DNA of 64,000 nt from a virus: the IMG/VR virus record IMGVR_UViG_3300029989_000006. One strand, written 5' to 3'. Shown here piece by piece: positions 15,893 through 32,414 of the stretch. A program made the translations under genes and the position numbers. Below the pieces are notes generated by a model that was not told where the DNA came from, did not search any database, and saw only the letters and a program-made list of their open reading frames with translations. Each line of letters starts with the position of its first letter. Position 1 is the first letter of the stretch.

Positions 15893-15964
15893 TGCGTGGT
15901 AATTCAGTGGTAGAAATTATGCCTCATAAGCCTAAAGTCACGGGTTCAATTCCCGTCTACGCTA
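15893..15964 (+). tRNA. tRNA-Met(CAT)
   Basis: cloverleaf, CTCATAA loop, 1:72 mismatch. Confidence 0.75.
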
Positions 15965-15972
15965 CTAATACA

Positions 15973-16057
15973 TGCGAGTTAGAGAAGTTGGTATCTCACC
16001 AGTCTCATAAGCTGGAATCTCCATAAGGGATCATTGGTTCGAGTCCAATACTCGCTA
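15973..16057 (+). tRNA. tRNA-Met(CAT) with long variable arm
   Basis: CCAGT-CTCATAA-GCTGG; extra arm ATCTC-CATAA-GGGAT. Confidence 0.75.
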
Positions 16058-23054: not shown

Positions 23055-23168
23055 GGGGAAGTAGCCAAATGGATAGGCAATTGAATTAGGATCAATCAAA
23101 AAAATAAGTAATTTTCTAAGTTACTTACAATACCTACAAAAATGTAAGTTCGAATCTTACCTTCCCCA
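23055..23168 (+). ncRNA. tRNA-Leu(TAG)-like scaffold with helix-ACAAU module in the variable region
   Basis: GGGGAAG/CTTCCCC, ATTGA-ATTAGGA-TCAAT, insert AAGTAATT/AGTTACTT-ACAATACC. Confidence 0.75.
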
Positions 23169-23174
23169 CAAAAT

Positions 23175-23249
23175 AGTCGTTTAGCTCAGTTGATTTAGAG
23201 CATTTGTTTTACACACAAAAGGTCACTGGTTTGAATCCAGTCACGACTA
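23175..23249 (+). tRNA. tRNA-Val(TAC)
   Basis: TTTGT-TTTACAC-ACAAA. Confidence 0.85.
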
Positions 23250-23269
23250 CAAAAAATTCGAAAAAACAT

Positions 23270-23380
23270 GGGGGACAAGCCGACGGTAGGCATCAAATCT
23301 TGAAATTTTGACAAAAAATTAGTAACTTCGAAAGTTACTTACAATACCTTTAAAATGTGGTTCGACTCCACGTTCCCCCA
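23270..23380 (+). ncRNA. tRNA-Ser(TGA)-like scaffold with helix-ACAAU module in the variable region
   Basis: GGGGGAC/GTTCCCC, CTTGAAA loop, insert AGTAACTT-CGA-AAGTTACT-TACAATACC, GTGG-TTCGACT-CCAC. Confidence 0.75.
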
Positions 23381-23384
23381 CAAC

Positions 23385-23446
23385 AAGACACTTACAATAA
23401 TTTATAAATAAATCACTTCAATTATGTAATTAAATTTCAGTGTCTT
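23385..23446 (+). ncRNA. helix-ACAAU module, terminal-stem form
   Basis: AAGACACT-TACAAT...AGTGTCTT. Confidence 0.65.
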
Positions 23447-23455
23447 CAACTTATT

Positions 23456-23511
23456 AAGTTACTTACAATAAATATACTTTAAATTTTTGGTAAATTAAAA
23501 TCAAGTAACTT
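23456..23511 (+). ncRNA. helix-ACAAU module, terminal-stem form
   Basis: AAGTTACTT-ACAAT...AAGTAACTT. Confidence 0.65.
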
Positions 23512-23572
23512 CCCACACAAGACATTAAATATGTCTTTTTATTATGTGTTTATTATTAATACTTTAGAACTT

Positions 23573-25405
23573 ATGTTGCAAGTAAAAACAAAAAAGAATG
23601 ACAATCCATTCTATGGAATGAGAAATTGTCTAAATTTATTTCAGAATGCAGGGAAAGGAACAATTTCCACTGTACTACTTGATGCATGTTGGAATGAGGT
23701 TAAGAACAGCAAAGAGGGCAAAGAGATGTTCTTCTCAATGTTATTCTCCATTGGAGATATAACAGCGAGAAAACATAATATCTTTGGTGCTGCTAAACCA
23801 GATTCTGGCGGTAATGCTGCAAGAGAGAACTTCAGAACTATAATGAATTGGATGAAGAAAACTTCATCAAAACAATTTACTAAGTTCATGAATGCAAGAT
23901 TGTTTAATGAGTTTACCTCGTTTGATAATCTATTAGCTATGAGAATAAAAACCGTAGCTAAATCAAAGAAAATAATTGGTATTATTGACCAAGTTGCTGG
24001 TAATGATGATATTGCAAAATATATTGCATATATTATTCAACATGGAAATCCTTTTGATAAATTCTTAGTGGCTAAGTTTTTATCACGTCCACGTCTTTCT
24101 AAAAGATCTAAACATAAAGTATTACTGCCAGAAACAAAGACAATAATGAAAGCCAAAGAGGAGTTCATTAAAAAGATTTGTGATATCTTAGGTTTTGCTT
24201 ATGAGAAAAGAAATGGTTATATTCACTTTACTGATTTCTATAACTGGAAAAAGGAGTACAATGGAGAATTAGAAAGTGTTTTGTTTTCCTCAGGGAAGAT
24301 TAAAGAGTTTGATCAACAAGGTTTCCTTGCTTGGTTGGATAAACTTCCTTCTTCTGCTCGCTTCAGGGTAAGATGTCGTGTGTTAAAAGCTGACAATACT
24401 GTTAAAGACAAATGGGGACCGATTGGTACCTGGTTTCTTGAATGGGAAAAATTCAAGGAAGGTAAACAAACAGAACAACGTGTTATCGAGGAAAAAGTCC
24501 GTCAGGGAACTGCTACTGAAAAGGAAGTAGTTAAACTTGAGCAGGTTAAGAAAGAAGCTAAGGTTACTGTTGGTGCAGTTAATTTTACTCAACTCTTTAA
24601 AGAAATCCTTACCAATACAGCCGATTTGTTAAAAATTCAGCCGTTCTTGGATAAAGTAAATCTTCCATACAATACTTTGATATTTGCAGATGATTCTGGT
24701 TCTATGCAAAGTAATTGGGGTTGGAGTTCTTCTCATGGATATACTCCATTTGATATGGCAGCATTCATTGCTACTATTTGTATTATGAAGAACCCTGATG
24801 ACACTGGTAGAAGCTTGATGGGACTATTCTCAATAGGTACACGAATGTTTACTGGTATTGATTCTGTAAGAATTTCACCAAATTCTTTCATGAAGGGAAG
24901 TGTAAGGAATATTGCTGCACCATTCTATAGTCCTCAACTAGATTTTAAACAAAATCTGGAGAATATGAGAGGTTTCTTAAAAGCCCATCAAACTGGTAAT
25001 AGTACTAACATCGCTTCTATCCCTGAAGCAATTCATGCTTGGACAAAAGGAGATAGTGCTTTAATTGAGCAACTACAAAATTTCCCTGTTTGGACTATTA
25101 TTACTGATGGTAATTTTAATCAAATGGGTAATGCTACTGCATCTATTGGGGATTTCATGAAGAAGTGTGAAAAATACTTCGGATTTAGACCTTATATTGT
25201 TGCAATTGATGTATCTGAGAGCAGTTCACAGATGGCAGAAAACTTCTCAGGAGTGGAGAACTTTATGTTCCTTCCACCAAATCCTGCACAAATTGAACAA
25301 TTCTTAACGAATTTTAAAGATATTGATGTTATGGATGTTTATACACCATTACAATCAATTCATCGTTCTAACCGTTATGAATTGGTAAGAGCAAATGTTT
25401 TATAA
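23573..25405 (+). CDS. DUF2828/TROVE(Ro60)-like helical domain plus C-terminal vWA protein
   Basis: CLNLF...LFSIGDIT...GGNAARENFR..MNWM N-terminal pattern; vWA LIFADDSGSM, STNI, PVWTIITDGNFN; start 23573 preferred because 23531 lies inside a hairpin. Confidence 0.7.
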   Translation: MLQVKTKKNDNPFYGMRNCLNLFQNAGKGTISTVLLDACWNEVKNSKEGKEMFFSMLFSIGDITARKHNIFGAAKPDSGGNAARENFRTIMNWMKKTSSKQFTKFMNARLFNEFTSFDNLLAMRIKTVAKSKKIIGIIDQVAGNDDIAKYIAYIIQHGNPFDKFLVAKFLSRPRLSKRSKHKVLLPETKTIMKAKEEFIKKICDILGFAYEKRNGYIHFTDFYNWKKEYNGELESVLFSSGKIKEFDQQGFLAWLDKLPSSARFRVRCRVLKADNTVKDKWGPIGTWFLEWEKFKEGKQTEQRVIEEKVRQGTATEKEVVKLEQVKKEAKVTVGAVNFTQLFKEILTNTADLLKIQPFLDKVNLPYNTLIFADDSGSMQSNWGWSSSHGYTPFDMAAFIATICIMKNPDDTGRSLMGLFSIGTRMFTGIDSVRISPNSFMKGSVRNIAAPFYSPQLDFKQNLENMRGFLKAHQTGNSTNIASIPEAIHAWTKGDSALIEQLQNFPVWTIITDGNFNQMGNATASIGDFMKKCEKYFGFRPYIVAIDVSESSSQMAENFSGVENFMFLPPNPAQIEQFLTNFKDIDVMDVYTPLQSIHRSNRYELVRANVL

Positions 25406-25422
25406 TTTATAAATAATTAAAA

Positions 25423-25881
25423 ATGAGAATTAATTTTACAACAGAACATCAAGTAAGGTTGCAAACCCTTGCTTTAGGTATGCTCTTCGGAGGTACTAAG
25501 GTAAAAGGATTAATTGGCACAGAGATTAATGTGTATCAATTGATCAATGAAACTACTATACAGACGTTAACAACGCTTTATGGTAATCTAAAAAAAGAAT
25601 TGGATAAAATCCAGTCTTTGGATGAGTGGTCAATGACTGAATATCAACAAAGAAAAGCAGAGGAATTAAAAACCGTTGCTGAATTGGTAAATCTTACCAT
25701 TGGTTATAAACGTCACCAGGCTCAACTTTATCAAGAAAAAGCTGAAATTTCAGAGTTGAAAGCTCAATTGAAACAGCTTAAAGAATCTACTCTTACTCCT
25801 GCTGATCGTATTGCAGCTCTTGAAAAACAGATCCAAGGTATGGGTGGGGATATTGAAGCAGAACCTGCAAAAGTAGAATAA
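25423..25881 (+). CDS. coiled-coil hypothetical protein
   Basis: 152 aa directly downstream of the vWA gene. Confidence 0.75.
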   Translation: MRINFTTEHQVRLQTLALGMLFGGTKVKGLIGTEINVYQLINETTIQTLTTLYGNLKKELDKIQSLDEWSMTEYQQRKAEELKTVAELVNLTIGYKRHQAQLYQEKAEISELKAQLKQLKESTLTPADRIAALEKQIQGMGGDIEAEPAKVE

Positions 25882-25892
25882 ATAAAAAAGAT

Positions 25893-25999
25893 AGGATACT
25901 TACAAAATACAAATTACGTTTAGCTCAGTTGGTAGAGCATCCGCCTTAAAAGCAGAGTGTAATTGGTTCAATTCCAATAATGTAAGCCGAAAGTATCCT
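25893..25999 (+). ncRNA. helix-ACAA module enclosing a complete cloverleaf (TAA loop)
   Basis: AGGATACTT-ACAAAAT...AAGTATCCT around TTACGTT/AATGTAA cloverleaf 25914-25985. Confidence 0.75.
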
Positions 26000-26023
26000 T
26001 CTTTTTAACCTTAAAAAAATATT

Positions 26024-26563
26024 ATGCGAAATATAGAACAATATGGTAATGAATTAACAATTACTGGAGTTTTAGTTGGTAATGCTAAAGAGACTGAAAT
26101 AATTATGTTTCCAAGTGAAGTACTTTATTCCCCAGTAGTTTCCACCCTTTATCCAACTCAAGAAGAATTGTTAAAAATATTCAATCAAATGGATACTTTA
26201 GCAATTACTAATAATGCTAAGGTTGTTCTTCGTAAATCTCAAAGACAAATTGATCAAGATATTTCTTGGCAAGTCTTTAGAAGAGATGATTTTACCTGTG
26301 CATATTGTGGTAATAATCATACTCCAATGACAGTAGATCATTTAGTTCTTTGGGAAAACTTAGGAGATTCTGTTCCTGGTAATTTATTATCAGCTTGTAG
26401 AAAATGTAATAAGACTAGAGGAAATCAACCATTGGATGAATTCTTAGAATCATATTATTACAAAACATTGCCTAAACATGGATATGGATTATTAAAAGAA
26501 ACAATTTTGATAATGTATGAAAAAGCAAAACAATTACCTTTAAGAAAAGAAAGGTCAAGATAA
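26024..26563 (+). CDS. HNH nuclease (standard code)
   Basis: VFRRDDFTCAYCG...TVDHL...NLLSACRKCNKTRG. Confidence 0.85.
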   Translation: MRNIEQYGNELTITGVLVGNAKETEIIMFPSEVLYSPVVSTLYPTQEELLKIFNQMDTLAITNNAKVVLRKSQRQIDQDISWQVFRRDDFTCAYCGNNHTPMTVDHLVLWENLGDSVPGNLLSACRKCNKTRGNQPLDEFLESYYYKTLPKHGYGLLKETILIMYEKAKQLPLRKERSR

Positions 26564-26571
26564 AATTAAAC

Positions 26572-26684
26572 AAGTTACTTACAATCCTTCCAAATTTGTA
26601 TTTTTAGCTCAGTTGGTTGAGCGAAAAACTGTTAATTTTTAGGTCGTCGGTTCAACTCCGACAAAATACGTCATAAAGTAATTT
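26572..26684 (+). ncRNA. helix-ACAAU module enclosing a tRNA-Asn(GTT)-like cloverleaf
   Basis: AAGTTACTT-ACAAT...AAGTAATTT around TGTATTT/AAATACG cloverleaf 26597-26670. Confidence 0.75.
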
Positions 26685-26703
26685 TTTATTCAAAAACAAA
26701 ATG

Positions 26704-26790
26704 GGGGGGAACACTTCGGTTAGTGATCTAGTATCTAAGATTAGATACTTATAATACATTAAAAATTGGGTTCGATTCCCAGTTCCCCCG
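26704..26790 (+). ncRNA. tRNA-like scaffold with anticodon arm replaced by helix-AUAAU module
   Basis: GGGGGAA/TTCCCCC, TGGG-TTCGATT-CCCA T-arm, AGTATCTA-AGAT-TAGATACT-TATAATAC. Confidence 0.7.
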
Positions 26791-26794
26791 CGAC

Positions 26795-26863
26795 AAGACA
26801 CATACAATTAATTAAGAGTTCTATCAGAACACTTGCCTGTTAAGCAAACAAAATTTGTGTCTT
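26795..26863 (+). ncRNA. helix-ACAAU module enclosing an isolated anticodon-like hairpin
   Basis: AAGACACA-TACAAT...TGTGTCTT; internal TTGC-CTGTTAA-GCAA. Confidence 0.65.
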
Positions 26864-29864: not shown

Positions 29865-29936
29865 GCAGGATATAGCTTAATTGATAAAGCATCTGGCCTC
29901 CAACCAGAGGAAGCGGTTTGAGTCCGATATTCTGCT
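29865..29936 (+). tRNA. tRNA-Gly(TCC)
   Basis: TCTGG-CCTCCAA-CCAGA, GCAGGAT/ATTCTGC, U73. Confidence 0.75.
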
Positions 29937-30004
29937 CTATAGAGGGGAAACTATTAAAAGTCACCGCGTTTTAACCTTTTTCGAAATGAAAATAAAAGGT
30001 AACT

Positions 30005-30601: not shown

Positions 30602-31393
30602 ATGAAAAAGTTAAACACGTTATTGGCCGTTACTGATGCTTTAAAAGCTAAGTACAAAAGAATGGTTGAGGATTTTACGAAATTCTTTACTAATTCACAG
30701 GGAGCATTTTTAGGTGAAAGGAATACTTATATTCCTAAAGAAGGTACAATTGATGAACCTTCAAAAAGAAAGTATACCAAAGTCATCACTACAGTAGATG
30801 AGAAAATTGATTGGTTCTTACAGGAATCAAAAGATTTCGTTGATGCACTGTTTTCTCAAGAGAAGACTAATGCTTCTGGATTAGCGAAAGCTCATTTGGT
30901 TGTGAATGGAGAAGATTGGGGAGAGTTTACTTCCCTTGAACTTTTAAGGTTAAAGACATTACTTGAGGGTAATGATATGGGTAATCTAGAAAGTCTTCTT
31001 GCAAACATACCGGTAAAATCTGATGCTGCAATTTGGGATCCATCTACATTGGAAGAACATAATGGAAGAAGAATTTTTCAATCTCCTCTTGTATCAGGTG
31101 TTTCAAAAACAACTGTAAAAGAAGAGTATATTCTGGAAGATCCAAATCTCCGTCATGGTGTGACAAATTACACTCCTCAGAAAGCTTTCAGAACTATTCC
31201 TCAGGATCTTGGGGATTATACATTGCAAACATTCTCTGGACAATGGTCACAAAGAGAAAGAGCTGGAGCTTTGAAGAGAAGAAGTGATCTTATTGTTGCA
31301 GTTACTGGAGCATTAAAAGATTGTAATGATTGCGTTGCAGTTGAATCTGAATTAACAGCCGAGAAAATCTACGGATTTATCTTTAAAGGTTAA
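30602..31393 (+). CDS. conserved phage/bacterial protein of unknown function
   Basis: 263 aa well-formed ORF followed by a structured RNA cluster. Confidence 0.8.
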   Translation: MKKLNTLLAVTDALKAKYKRMVEDFTKFFTNSQGAFLGERNTYIPKEGTIDEPSKRKYTKVITTVDEKIDWFLQESKDFVDALFSQEKTNASGLAKAHLVVNGEDWGEFTSLELLRLKTLLEGNDMGNLESLLANIPVKSDAAIWDPSTLEEHNGRRIFQSPLVSGVSKTTVKEEYILEDPNLRHGVTNYTPQKAFRTIPQDLGDYTLQTFSGQWSQRERAGALKRRSDLIVAVTGALKDCNDCVAVESELTAEKIYGFIFKG

Positions 31394-31402
31394 TTATTAT
31401 AT

Positions 31403-31615
31403 GCGCTTGTGGCGGAATTGAGTAGACGCACCTAGTAAATGGGCACACAAGAAGTCGGGATTAACCGACGGAGAAACAAATACCATAATGCATATTACTT
31501 AATGAAGAGGAAGTTACCCGAAAGGATATTGTACTTAACATTTAAAAGGAAAACCCTTGGGTTAGTACGATATGAGAGAAAGTTTCGTATGGGGGTTCGA
31601 ATCCCTCCAAGCGCA
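31403..31615 (+). ncRNA. tRNA-Leu-like scaffold with about 150-nt insert
   Basis: GCGCTTG/CAAGCGC, TGGCGGAATTGAGTAGACGC D-arm, GGGGG-TTCGAAT-CCCTC T-arm. Confidence 0.7.
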
Positions 31616-31719
31616 CAATATTTGGTCAAGCCTGAGTTTTAACATTAGCTTAATTATTCGCCACGAATATTAACTTTAGTGTTGTCCAAACAAACTTAGC
31701 TTGATTTTTATACGTATAT

Positions 31720-31856
31720 ATCATCAGGAGGAAAAAAACTATAACATCGCGGGTTCGAATCCCGTCGGGGCCTCAATTAATATAAAAATGGCCCCGTCGT
31801 CAAGTGGTTAAGACAATTATATAAATAGCTTTAAACTAAAGATCCCTGAATATGAT
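31720..31856 (+). ncRNA. circularly permuted tRNA-like RNA (T-arm, loop-closed acceptor, D-arm), YrlA-type topology
   Basis: GCGGG-TTCGAAT-CCCGT, CGGGGCC...GGCCCCG, TCGTCAAGTGGTTAAGAC; outer ATCATCAGG/CCTGA..ATGAT stem. Confidence 0.7.
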
Positions 31857-31905
31857 TATACAAAAGTTCTCCCAATCGAAGGAAATTGAACCTGGGAGAA
31901 CGCAT

Positions 31906-31976
31906 GGGAAAGTGATGCAATGGTAGACGTATATTACGTGGCAATATTTGTGGAGGTTCGAATCCTCCCTTTCCCA
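31906..31976 (+). tRNA. tRNA-His(GTG)-like
   Basis: ATATT-ACGTGGC-AATAT, GGGAAAG/CTTTCCC. Confidence 0.65.
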
Positions 31977-31980
31977 CAAT

Positions 31981-32064
31981 GGAAGTATGACAGAGTGCTA
32001 ATGTACCTGACTTGAAATCAGAGGTGCCAGGAATGGTGCGTGGGTTGAACCCCTACTACTTCCT
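31981..32064 (+). tRNA. tRNA-Ser(TGA)
   Basis: CTGA-CTTGAAA-TCAG, variable arm. Confidence 0.75.
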
Positions 32065-32087
32065 CAATTATTTATTAAACTTATAAA

Positions 32088-32414
32088 ATGAAAGATTCAT
32101 TTACTATTGAAACCGCTATGTTAGCAAAAGAAAAAGGATATCCACAGATATTTGCAGGATGTACTATTAATGGATATTATTTTAAAAATGCTGATACATA
32201 TTTACAAGATACTCAGGCAAGATTATAAAAATGGTTGAGAGATGTGCATAATATTAAAGTTTATCTTTTATGGTATGATGATAAAATAACTAATCCTAGA
32301 TGGAGTGTGTATATTCATTATCCTCCAGTTTATAAACACTATTATATTAATGGTATTGAAGATTATGAAGAAGGTTTAGAAATAGGATTACAAACAGCTT
32401 TAAAATTAATTTAA
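32088..32414 (+). pseudogene. paralog of 37832..38251 with in-frame TAA
   Basis: LAKEKGY...TQARL*KWLRDVHNI...YEEGLEIGLQTALKLI; TAA at 32226. Confidence 0.65.

What the first reader, a model, noticed from the sequence alone, without database searches (positions are those of the whole stretch)
30602..31860. YrlA-topology permuted tRNA mimic downstream of a conserved 263-aa gene
Seen: T-arm, then acceptor 3' strand CGGGGCC, a 17-nt linker, acceptor 5' strand GGCCCCG, then the D-arm, with no anticodon arm. The unit is nested in an outer stem and preceded by short repeats (TTAACATTAGC, TTAACTTTAGT, AAACTTAGC). Established: YrlA Y RNAs have this T, closed acceptor, D order. It lacks the ACAAU module. 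Inference: a second, distinct protein-RNA pair with 30602-31393, the repeats being protein-binding sites.
Basis: partly seen in the sequence, partly recalled or inferred. Interest (0 to 1): 0.7.

Follow-up and report, generated by a model that had tools for sequence, protein, structure and literature searches.

The report
Back-to-front tRNA mimic RNA with DUF7873
The flagged stretch is the core of a real, roughly 290-base folded phage RNA built around a tRNA look-alike whose two halves are in swapped order. The RNA follows one uncharacterised gene (DUF7873) in about 60 phage sequences, so the two are probably an undescribed RNA-protein pair related to bacterial Y RNAs.

Summary
Window 31749-31814 holds a T-arm, a 3' acceptor strand, a 17-nt linker, a 5' acceptor strand and a D-arm.

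It is not a relic. An equivalent element lies downstream of the DUF7873 gene in every related locus that extends far enough, about 60 loci, with protein identity down to 24%. All four tRNA helices covary (92.7% paired, 21 of 21 pairs with double changes, 0 of 500 shuffles).

The element is the core of a ~290-nt RNA (31617-31901). The parts are:
- a 5' pseudoknot made from UUAGC-type repeats;
- a 5-bp anticodon-stem equivalent with no anticodon loop;
- a 3' hairpin with a conserved GAAGGAUAUUGA loop.

The acceptor 3' strand is followed by T-C-A-A, the same N-C-[A/T]-A trailer as 27 of 28 true tRNA genes here. The linker varies from 16 to 403 nt. The RNA is therefore probably cut by tRNA-processing enzymes into two base-paired pieces, as reported for M. 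smegmatis YrlA.

It fails the membership tests for YrlA, tmRNA and permuted tRNA genes, and it is absent from Rfam 15.

This scan has already noted the same DUF7873-RNA pair in at least 34 other genomes. Its function is unknown. My best guess is a Ro60-independent RNP that presents a tRNA mimic.

The parts
30602..31393 (+). DUF7873 gene (263 aa), the conserved neighbour of the RNA
   Evidence: Pfam PF25283, E 3.6e-34. There are 352+ homologs, all unnamed. AlphaFold2 model pLDDT 89.5 with no informative PDB, BFVD or Atlas match.
31617..31901 (+). Whole structured ncRNA, about 285-290 nt
   Evidence: MFE -76.5 kcal/mol, z -5.0 against shuffles. Conserved blocks run along its full length in 24 relatives. 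It starts at the CAA trailer of the upstream tRNA-like gene and ends 4 nt before tRNA-His.
31621..31625 (+). H1 5' strand (TTTGG)
   Evidence: Pairs with CCAAA at 31686-31690. Relatives carry CTGAT/ATCAG, CACTC/GAGTG and TTGACC/GGTCAA. 6 of 6 pairs show double changes. Cognate duplexes beat non-cognate ones, p<=0.0005.
31626..31639 (+). H2 5' strand (TCAAGC...AGTTT)
   Evidence: Pairs with 31692-31704 and crosses H1, which makes an H-type pseudoknot. Cognate duplex mean -9.6 against -5.8 kcal/mol for non-cognate, p<=0.0005. The fixed-column count is weaker, 60.8% paired, because the register shifts between sequences.
31640..31685 (+). H3, an imperfect hairpin built from TTAGC/TTAGT repeats
Evidence: Predicted in the MFE fold. 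Cognate versus non-cognate test p<=0.0005.
31686..31690 (+). H1 3' strand (CCAAA), preceded by the conserved TTAGTGTTG
31692..31704 (+). H2 3' strand (AAACT..GCTTGA)
31715..31728 (+).
   Evidence: Pairs with 31845-31860. Relatives carry TCGGGTAT/ATACCCGA, TTGAAAGG/CCTTTCAA and CTACAAGTA/TACTTGTA. 6 of 7 pairs show double changes. p<=0.0005.
31740..31744 (+). P2 3'-side strand (TATAA), the anticodon-stem equivalent, followed by the 4-nt variable loop CATC
   Evidence: Pairs with TTATA at 31817-31821. All 5 pairs show double changes among 29 relatives.
31749..31765 (+). T-arm
   Evidence: 100% paired in 29 sequences, with a TTCGAAT-type loop.
31766..31772 (+). Acceptor 3' strand (CGGGGCC)
   Evidence: 7 of 7 complementary to 31790-31796. 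99-100% paired, 7 of 7 pairs with double changes, more than 25 different acceptor sequences.
31773..31789 (+). Linker. It begins with T73-C74-A75-A76.
   Evidence: C74 is invariant in 29 elements. 27 of 28 true tRNA genes of the window have the same trailer. Linker length is 16-403 nt in relatives.
31790..31796 (+). Acceptor 5' strand (GGCCCCG)
31799..31814 (+). D-arm with a GG-containing loop
   Evidence: 94.8% paired, 4 of 4 pairs with double changes.
31817..31821 (+). P2 5'-side strand (TTATA)
31822..31844 (+). Junction J, holding the conserved AUAGCUUUAA motif
   Evidence: Conserved columns in A4. It does not covary with the H2 5' strand (p 0.79).
31845..31860 (+). H5 3' strand (CCTGAATATGATTATA), followed by ACAAAAG
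31866..31901 (+). H6 terminal hairpin (9 bp) with the loop AUCGAAGGAAAUUGAACC
   Evidence: Loop consensus YGAAGGAUAUUGA, with AGG nearly invariant. A U-run follows the hairpin in relatives that have no downstream tRNA.

Best explanation
The flagged element is the tRNA-like core of a ~290-nt non-coding RNA (31617-31901). The RNA belongs to a widespread family that is not in Rfam 15 and that travels with the DUF7873 protein gene.

Shown here:
- The RNA folds into a 5' H-type pseudoknot domain made of UUAGC-type repeats.
- A long-range clamp helix (H5) and a 5-bp anticodon-stem equivalent (P2) connect to a complete tRNA top half: T-arm, 7-bp acceptor stem and D-arm with elbow nucleotides.
- The tRNA top half is circularly permuted.
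- The RNA ends in a 3' hairpin with a conserved loop.

Inferred:
- The RNA is transcribed with the tRNA cluster and processed like a tRNA. RNase P would cut 5' of G1. RNase Z or exonucleases plus the host CCA-adding enzyme would finish the 3' acceptor end.
- This removes the variable linker and leaves two RNA pieces held together by the acceptor stem, P2 and H5.
- The mature molecule assembles with DUF7873 into a ribonucleoprotein that does not need Ro60. It presents a tRNA-shaped handle with no anticodon to tRNA-recognising host factors.
- It would act as an adaptor or decoy in phage-host conflict over tRNA and RNA integrity. It would not decode.
For: - An element with the same order of parts lies downstream of DUF7873 in all related loci with enough downstream DNA. 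These are viral, metagenomic and MAG contigs, with protein identity down to 24%.
- DUF7873 is the only conserved neighbouring gene.
- T, acceptor, D and P2 helices: 92.7% paired, 21 of 21 pairs with double changes, 0 of 500 shuffles, slid controls 34-47% paired.
- H1, H2, H3 and H5 are supported by the cognate versus non-cognate duplex test (p<=0.0005; negative controls p 0.03-0.79) and by fixed-column counts.
- Whole-RNA fold z -5.0.
- Signs of tRNA-type processing: C74 is invariant in 29 elements; the trailer T-C-A-A matches the N-C-[A/T]-A of 27 of 28 true tRNA genes in the window; the linker varies from 16 to 403 nt.
- Both partners are present in Lak megaphages and in cultured Rhizobium phage RHph_TM16.
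- No TROVE or DUF2828 hit in at least four complete genomes that carry the pair.
Against: - There is no transcript, processing or binding datum. The protein-RNA link rests on gene order and co-occurrence only.
- In Lak phages the two lie 180 kb apart.
- The DUF7873 fold gives no hint of RNA binding.
- This phage has a Ro60-like protein 6 kb upstream. DUF2828 proteins occur in 6 of 13 relatives searched. The own-genome Ro60-like protein escapes both HMMs, so an empty search does not show that Ro60-like proteins are absent elsewhere.
- An earlier check in this scan priced the Ro60-independent RNP reading at only about 22 in 100.
Confidence: 0.5

Rival explanations
1. It is a divergent Y RNA in the strict sense. 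Its partner would be the phage's Ro60-like protein (23531-25405, or DUF2828 proteins in relatives). DUF7873 would be an accessory factor or only a neighbour.
For: - The topology equals that of YrlA.
- The own genome encodes a protein whose nearest ESM Atlas clusters are TROVE + vWA_Ro60 (score 0.97, 27 of 30 hits), on the same strand 6.2 kb upstream.
- DUF2828 hits lie 5-7 kb from the DUF7873 locus in 3 relatives.
- In some relatives the H6 loop reads GNCGAAG, like the proposed Ro-binding motif.
Against: - The conserved linkage is to DUF7873, not to the Ro60-like gene.
- No TROVE or DUF2828 hit in G001, G007, G008 and RHph_TM16, all complete genomes that carry the RNA.
- No GNCGAA motif in the window RNA.
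- Only the tRNA-like part matches the YrlA model, at 19.8 bits against a threshold of 69.
- The RNA is about three times longer than Y RNAs (80-130 nt).
Confidence: 0.17
2. It is a two-piece, tmRNA-like RNA. After processing, the CCA end would be aminoacylated and the RNA would enter ribosomes, either to tag proteins or to block host trans-translation.
For: - The gene plan matches permuted tmRNA: pseudoknot, P2 3' strand, T-arm and acceptor 3' end, then an excised segment, then acceptor 5' strand, D region, P2 5' strand and a hairpin with a UGA in its loop.
- The discriminator is never A (U in 22, G in 6 and C in 1 of 29), which hints at selection on that position.
- In several sequences an open frame ends E-G-Y-stop in the H6 loop.
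- A tag-less tmRNA-like RNA of phage DS6A has been reported to inhibit tmRNA (PMC11915505).
Against: - No G3:U70 pair in any of 29 elements.
- The tmRNA_permuted model scores 14.5 bits against a threshold of 47, although its authors say it retrieves all known permuted tmRNAs.
- ARAGORN calls no tmRNA.
- The distance from the conserved ACAC anchor to the loop UGA is 23-27 nt and falls in all three phases (7/4/4). Several relatives lack the UGA or have a stop two codons before it.
- The element has a true D-stem, unlike tmRNA.
- The phage encodes no SmpB.
Confidence: 0.07
3. It is a cis-acting 3' element of the DUF7873 transcript or of the tRNA operon. It would serve as a processing, stability or termination signal that borrows a tRNA shape so that RNase P and RNase Z punctuate the transcript, and it would have no trans function.
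For: - In most loci it starts within about 20 nt of the stop codon, with no obvious promoter.
- It ends in a terminator-like hairpin or directly at the next tRNA.
- It carries the tRNA-type trailer.
Against: - About 290 nt of covarying structure, including a pseudoknot and conserved loops, is far more than punctuation needs.
- In the window a tRNA-like gene separates it from DUF7873. In L013 two ORFs do so. In Lak phages the RNA is 180 kb from the gene yet fully conserved.
Confidence: 0.12
4. It is a genuine circularly permuted tRNA gene that matures into a decoding tRNA.
For: The 3' half lies upstream of the 5' half, the acceptor strands match perfectly, and a 5-bp anticodon stem is present. 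The residues flanking P2 are often A-rich on the 5' side and often carry a U at the position equivalent to 33.
Against: - There is no anticodon loop. P2 opens into a junction and the H5 helix.
- U33 is not conserved; CA, AC and AG occur at the equivalent positions in several sequences.
- No bulge-helix-bulge motif is present. The tRNA genes are of bacterial type, and bacteria are not known to have the archaeal/eukaryotic splicing endonuclease (my knowledge).
- No group I intron signal at E<=10.
- The flanking domains are conserved as structure, not discarded.
Confidence: 0.03
5. It is a decayed remnant: two unrelated tRNA fragments, or a broken tandem tRNA pair.
For: Tandem tRNAs with the same acceptor stem do occur in these phages and score up to about 55 bits with my model.
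Against: The element occurs in about 60 loci with more than 25 different but always complementary acceptor stems, conserved flanking domains, and neither a missing 5' half upstream nor a missing 3' half downstream.
Confidence: 0.01

Closest known systems
YrlA (Y RNA-like A, Rfam RF02553), especially the M. smegmatis form (Chen et al. 2014, PMC4201824)
   Same: - Same order: T-arm, acceptor stem closed by a loop, D-arm.
- The anticodon-stem position continues into a helix formed by the flanking sequence.
- The tRNA elbow nucleotides are kept.
- The M. smegmatis RNA has a 7-bp acceptor, is cut by RNase P in vitro, and is cleaved and given CCA in vivo, which leaves two pieces.
- YrlA also occurs in phages.
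   Different: - About 290 nt, against 80-130 nt.
- Has a 5' pseudoknot or repeat domain and a 3' hairpin with a conserved loop that YrlA lacks.
- No GNCGAAN0-1G motif.
- Only the tRNA-like part matches the model (19.8 bits, threshold 69).
- The linked gene is DUF7873, not Ro60/Rsr.
Two-piece (circularly permuted) tmRNA of Alphaproteobacteria, Betaproteobacteria and cyanobacteria (Rfam RF04321; PMC11915505)
   Same: - Permuted gene whose transcript is cut by tRNA-processing enzymes into two base-paired pieces.
- A pseudoknot lies upstream of the T-arm.
- A long interrupted helix joins the two pieces.
- The second piece ends in a hairpin.
   Different: - No G3:U70 pair.
- A real D-stem is present.
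- No conserved tag reading frame.
- 14.5 bits against a threshold of 47.
- The phage has no SmpB gene.
Circularly permuted tRNA genes of Cyanidioschyzon merolae and some archaea (from my own knowledge: Soma et al. 2007)
   Same: The 3' half is encoded upstream of the 5' half, and the acceptor ends are joined by a short linker that tRNA end-processing removes.
   Different: Those genes rebuild a normal anticodon loop through a bulge-helix-bulge splice and circular intermediate, and the product decodes. This RNA has no anticodon loop, no BHB motif, and its flanks are conserved structure.
Plant-virus 3' tRNA-like structures with an upstream pseudoknot domain, e.g. TMV (from my own knowledge; reviewed in PMC5723415)
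   Same: A pseudoknot domain lies immediately 5' of a tRNA mimic that would end in CCA after processing. Both are viral mimicry of tRNA without decoding.
   Different: Those are 3' ends of RNA virus genomes, they build the acceptor arm from a pseudoknot, and they are aminoacylated. This is a separate small RNA of a DNA phage with a canonical acceptor helix made of two strands.

Membership tests
YrlA (RF02553) | tRNA-like domain in the order T-arm, acceptor-like stem-loop, D-arm | tested here: met
   Rfam alignment over model positions 29-81. Covariation of all three helices.
YrlA (RF02553) | Scores at or above the Rfam gathering threshold (69 bits) over the whole model | tested here: not met
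   19.8 bits, E 0.19, and only positions 29-81 of 114 are matched.
YrlA (RF02553) | Encoded within 4 kb of a Ro60/TROVE gene on the same strand (criterion of Chen et al. 2014) | tested here: not met
   No Pfam TROVE hit in the genome. The only Ro60-like candidate (23531-25405, by ESM Atlas features) ends 6.2 kb upstream. No TROVE or DUF2828 hit in four complete relatives that carry the RNA.
YrlA (RF02553) | GNCGAAN0-1G motif near the 5' end (proposed Ro60 contact) | tested here: not met
   No GNCGAA in 31617-31905 (read). A partial CGAAGG lies in the 3' hairpin loop only.
YrlA (RF02553) | Length 80-130 nt | tested here: not met
   Conserved structure spans about 285 nt in the window, and about 280-310 nt (linker excluded) in the relatives aligned.
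Two-piece tmRNA (RF04321) | Permuted tRNA-like domain with an intervening segment between the acceptor strands | tested here: met
Two-piece tmRNA (RF04321) | G3:U70 alanine identity pair | tested here: not met
   The 3:70 pair is C:G, U:A or G:C. There is no G:U in 29 sequences (columns 38/77).
Two-piece tmRNA (RF04321) | Conserved tag reading frame with a stop codon | tested here: not met
   The loop UGA is out of phase with the upstream conserved motif (mod 3 = 7/4/4) and is absent in several relatives.
Two-piece tmRNA (RF04321) | Scores at or above the gathering threshold (47 bits); called by ARAGORN | tested here: not met
   14.5 bits. ARAGORN makes no tmRNA call in the window or in 7 relatives.
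Circularly permuted tRNA gene | 3' half upstream of 5' half, with complementary acceptor strands | tested here: met
Circularly permuted tRNA gene | Termini that rebuild a 7-nt anticodon loop (U33, anticodon) through a splice motif | tested here: not met
   P2 opens into junction J and helix H5. The position equivalent to 33 is not conserved. No group I intron hit.
DUF7873-associated tRNA-mimic RNA (unpublished grouping seen by this scan) | Permuted tRNA-like core with a repeat-rich 5' domain, located downstream of a DUF7873 gene | tested here: met
   Earlier notes describe the same pair in at least 34 other genomes.

The most novel reading that the evidence does not exclude
The RNA is cut in its linker, receives CCA and is then aminoacylated; its discriminator is U or G but never A. 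With DUF7873 in the role that SmpB plays for tmRNA, the two-piece tRNA mimic would be delivered to EF-Tu or the ribosome. That would make it a phage-encoded ribosome-directed system that is neither tmRNA nor Y RNA.
Probability: 0.07. Interest if true: 0.9.

Novelty: new variant of a known kind. Interest (0 to 1): 0.7.

Why it matters
tRNA mimics with swapped halves are known in only two settings: with Ro60 (Y RNAs) and with SmpB (two-piece tmRNA). This would be a third. It is a larger RNA with its own pseudoknot domain and its own conserved protein of unknown fold.

It is found across large phages: this 172-kb phage, Lak megaphages and a cultured Rhizobium phage. In this window and in several relatives it sits inside or next to a tRNA gene cluster. 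That placement suggests an undescribed way for phages to engage or shield the host's tRNA machinery. It also gives DUF7873 a first functional context.

Because RHph_TM16 is in culture, the pair can be tested directly. The finding also matters for annotation. ARAGORN and Rfam miss the RNA, and tandem tRNAs can be mistaken for it.

Tried and rejected
- **Rfam 15.** Gathering threshold on the whole window, and E<=10 on 31350-32100. Only weak partial YrlA and tmRNA hits, no ribozyme or intron.
- **Nucleotide search of INPHARED phages.** No match.
- **DUF7873 protein.** No PHROGs, NCBIfam, PADLOC or PDB-sequence match. The first AlphaFold2 model from 5 sequences was poor (pLDDT 60). The second, from 40 sequences, was good (89.5), but Foldseek on PDB and BFVD, VIA-align wide (best Z 7.9 at rmsd 6.4) and the Atlas gave nothing informative. 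Weak 'collar protein' and Cas7 rows were disregarded.
- **Tag reading frame.** A frame ending E-G-Y-stop in the H6 loop looked tmRNA-like, but it is out of phase across relatives.
- **Possible pairings.** Junction J with the H2 5' strand, and the H6 loop with the 5' domain, showed no covariation.
- **Permuted group I intron idea.** Resemblances to P3/J3-4 and J8/7 motifs recalled from memory were not backed by any Rfam hit. Dropped.
- **Phage-encoded helpers.** No CCA-adding enzyme, SmpB or RtcB in the genome.
- **GAAGGAUAUUG-like motif in the neighbouring 'cargo' tRNA.** Not above chance.
- **Papers.** Burroughs and Aravind 2016 and Sim et al. 2020 could not be read because they are not held. 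I therefore could not check the claim that a Ro-independent tRNA-like RNA was proposed in print.
- **Profile search.** Scans with the 40-sequence alignment failed for lack of conserved words.
Full report
**Setting.** The window is bases 70614-134613 of a 172-kb IMG/VR virus record. It carries DNA polymerase and helicase genes and at least 28 tRNA genes scattered among small ORFs. Earlier agents called the phage crAss-like. I did not test that.

**Observation.** The sequence at 31749-31814 reads as follows:
- T-arm GCGGG/TTCGAAT/CCCGT
- acceptor 3' strand CGGGGCC
- a 17-nt linker
- acceptor 5' strand GGCCCCG, then TC
- D-arm GTCAAGTGGTTAAGAC

ARAGORN calls nothing there. Rfam gives only a partial YrlA match (19.8 bits, threshold 69, model positions 29-81) and a weaker permuted-tmRNA match (14.5 bits, threshold 47). 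A normal tRNA-Glu in another viral contig has an identical T-arm and acceptor 3' strand and closely similar acceptor 5' strand and D-arm. The core therefore probably descends from a Glu-type tRNA.

**Conservation.**
- The upstream ORF 30602-31393 is Pfam DUF7873 (E 3.6e-34).
- I collected its homologs from viral contigs (32 loci), metagenome contigs (38) and MAGs (4).
- A pattern scan and a covariance model built from 29 of them (R1) find the same permuted element downstream in every locus that extends about 250 nt or more past the gene (the four loci with linkers above about 150 nt were found only by the pattern scan). The element usually begins 125-200 nt after the stop codon. This holds for proteins only 24-28% identical.
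- No other protein gene is conserved in the neighbourhood.
- DUF7873 was found in only 2 of 401 sampled genomes of the phylum of the Chitinophaga MAG that holds L077. It is therefore mainly a phage gene in this lineage.
- In the phage's own genome R1 scores the element at 81.9 bits. The next hit, 41 bits, is a tandem tRNA-Met pair.

**Structure of the core.** On a plain MAFFT alignment of 29 elements (A3), the T, acceptor, D and anticodon-stem-like (P2) helices are 92.7% paired. All 21 pairs show changes on both sides, no shuffle out of 500 reaches the observed values, and slid controls drop to 34-47% paired. The acceptor stem takes more than 25 different sequences and stays complementary. So there is an anticodon stem (window 31740-31744 with 31817-31821) but no anticodon loop.

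**The whole RNA.** Conserved sequence and structure extend from 31617 to about 31901 (A4, 24 sequences).
- The 5' domain starts with AAUAUUUG.
- H1 (31621-31625 with 31686-31690) and H2 (31626-31639 with 31692-31704) cross each other, which makes an H-type pseudoknot. Between their strands sits a long imperfect hairpin, H3, built from UUAGC/UUAGU repeats.
It clamps the 5' and 3' domains around the tRNA-like core.
- A terminal hairpin H6 (31866-31901) carries a conserved loop, consensus YGAAGGAUAUUGA. In relatives without a downstream tRNA it is followed by a U-run.
- H1, H2, H3, H5 and P2 all pass a cognate versus non-cognate duplex test (p<=0.0005). Control segment pairs do not (p 0.03-0.79).
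- Fixed-column counts give 6 of 6 pairs (H1) and 6 of 7 pairs (H5) with double changes. H2 is weaker (60.8% paired) because its quasi-palindromic AGCUUUAGCU motif shifts register between sequences.
- The window RNA folds at -76.5 kcal/mol, z -5.0.

**Evidence that the linker is cut out.** This is inference, not demonstration.
- The base after the discriminator is C in all 29 aligned elements, and the trailer is mostly N-C-N-A.
- In the window, 27 of 28 true tRNA genes have C74, 24 have A or T at position 75, and 25 have A76. The element has T-C-A-A.
- Linker length ranges from 16 to 403 nt, and one linker holds a small ORF.
- The acceptor is a full 7 bp. Chen et al. name this as the determinant that lets RNase P cut M. 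smegmatis YrlA in vitro; in vivo that RNA is cleaved and gains CCA, giving 65-nt and 82-nt fragments (PMC4201824).

I therefore expect a two-piece mature RNA held together by the acceptor stem, P2 and H5. The discriminator is U (22), G (6) or C (1) and never A, although A is the commonest discriminator in the phage's own tRNAs (17 of 28).

**Which protein partner?**
- DUF7873 has a confident model (pLDDT 89.5) made of long helices and long beta-hairpins. No informative structural or family match was found.
- The phage also has a Ro60-like protein at 23531-25405. The Pfam TROVE and DUF2828 models do not detect it, but its nearest ESM Atlas clusters are TROVE + vWA_Ro60 (0.97).
- DUF2828 proteins occur in 6 of 13 related genomes searched. 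They are not detected in G001, G007, G008 or RHph_TM16, which are complete genomes that carry the RNA.
- Detection is imperfect, because the own-genome copy escapes both HMMs. The Y-RNA rival therefore stays alive at about 0.17.

**Wider distribution.** Lak megaphages encode DUF7873 (40-42% identity) but have no RNA next to it. The complete RNA, with pseudoknot domain and permuted core, lies 180 kb away (R1 76.1 and 67.6 bits). Cultured Rhizobium phage RHph_TM16 has a 23%-identical homolog, followed 339 nt downstream by an unannotated element that ends in GCCA.

**Rivals tested.**
- tmRNA-like: there is no G3:U70 pair, the model scores are low, the phage encodes no SmpB, and a frame ending E-G-Y-stop in the H6 loop is not kept in phase.
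- True permuted tRNA: there is no anticodon loop, U33 is not conserved, and there is no splice motif or intron signal.
- Relic: excluded by the covariation.
- Pure cis element: unlikely, given the amount of structure and the unlinked copy in Lak phages.

**Comparison and novelty.** The RNA works like YrlA, and most like the cleavable M. smegmatis form. It fails the YrlA membership tests on score, Ro60 adjacency, the GNCGAA motif and size. It also fails the tmRNA tests. I found no paper that describes it.

This scan has already recorded the same DUF7873-RNA pair in at least 34 other genomes. Those notes agree with my reading but are not independent evidence.

I rate it a new variant of a known kind. 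The existence and architecture of the RNA are secure. The RNP and decoy mechanism is a hypothesis, at about 0.5.

Noticed in passing
window, all tRNA genes (e.g. 31906-31977, 29865-29937): 27 of 28 tRNA genes encode N73-C74-[A/T/G]75-A76 (CAA, CTA or CGA) instead of CCA or a random trailer. C74 and A76 are kept and C75 is avoided. This may be tuned to RNase Z and CCA-adding enzyme processing.
   Followed up: partly
window 31400-31617: A tRNA-like gene sits directly between DUF7873 and the RNA. It has acceptor GCGCTTG/CAAGCGC, a D-arm and a T-arm, and about 135 nt inserted where the anticodon arm should be. ARAGORN and Rfam both miss it. It folds with z -2.6. Its insert contains GAAAGGATATTG, which resembles the H6 loop motif, but that match is not above chance.
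   Followed up: partly
window 31981-32064: tRNA-Ser(TGA) with a long variable arm. Rfam finds it (44.4 bits) but ARAGORN misses it.
   Followed up: no
window 23120-26808 and 23531-25405: The 12-mer GWYACWTACAAW occurs exactly 8 times in the window. Seven of these cluster around a 624-aa gene whose nearest ESM Atlas clusters are Ro60/TROVE + vWA, although the Pfam TROVE and DUF2828 models do not detect it. This looks like a separate Ro60-like RNP locus.
   Followed up: partly
L089 (MK250016.1, Lak-A1, about 215.9-216.3 kb, minus strand); L090 (Lak-B5): Lak megaphages carry the complete RNA family member 180 kb from their DUF7873 gene, directly upstream of a tRNA-Lys.
   Followed up: partly
L088/L091 (MN988459.1, 65323-65429): Cultured Rhizobium phage RHph_TM16 has an unannotated permuted tRNA-like element with an encoded GCCA. 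It lies between hypothetical protein EVB27_107 (DUF7873-like) and tRNA-Thr.
   Followed up: partly
L013 5593-5995; L007 4987-5189: The linker between the acceptor strands is 403 nt in one relative, with a 57-codon lysine-rich ORF, and 203 nt in another. The linker looks like a tolerated insertion site.
   Followed up: no
L015 3254-3310, L020 3231-3315, window 15924-16010: Tandem tRNA genes with identical acceptor stems, 5-8 nt apart, mimic the permuted layout and score 41-55 bits with model R1. This is a false-positive class to screen out.
   Followed up: partly
L041 about 2283-2320: In one relative, a T-arm plus a short acceptor-like helix (a minihelix) lies right after the DUF7873 stop codon, ahead of the RNA's 5' domain.
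   Followed up: no
A4 columns 372-392 (H6 loop) in L010, L045, L047, L077, L078: In some relatives the H6 loop reads GNCGAAG, the motif proposed as the Ro60 contact in YrlA. It is absent in the window (AUCGAAGG).
   Followed up: no
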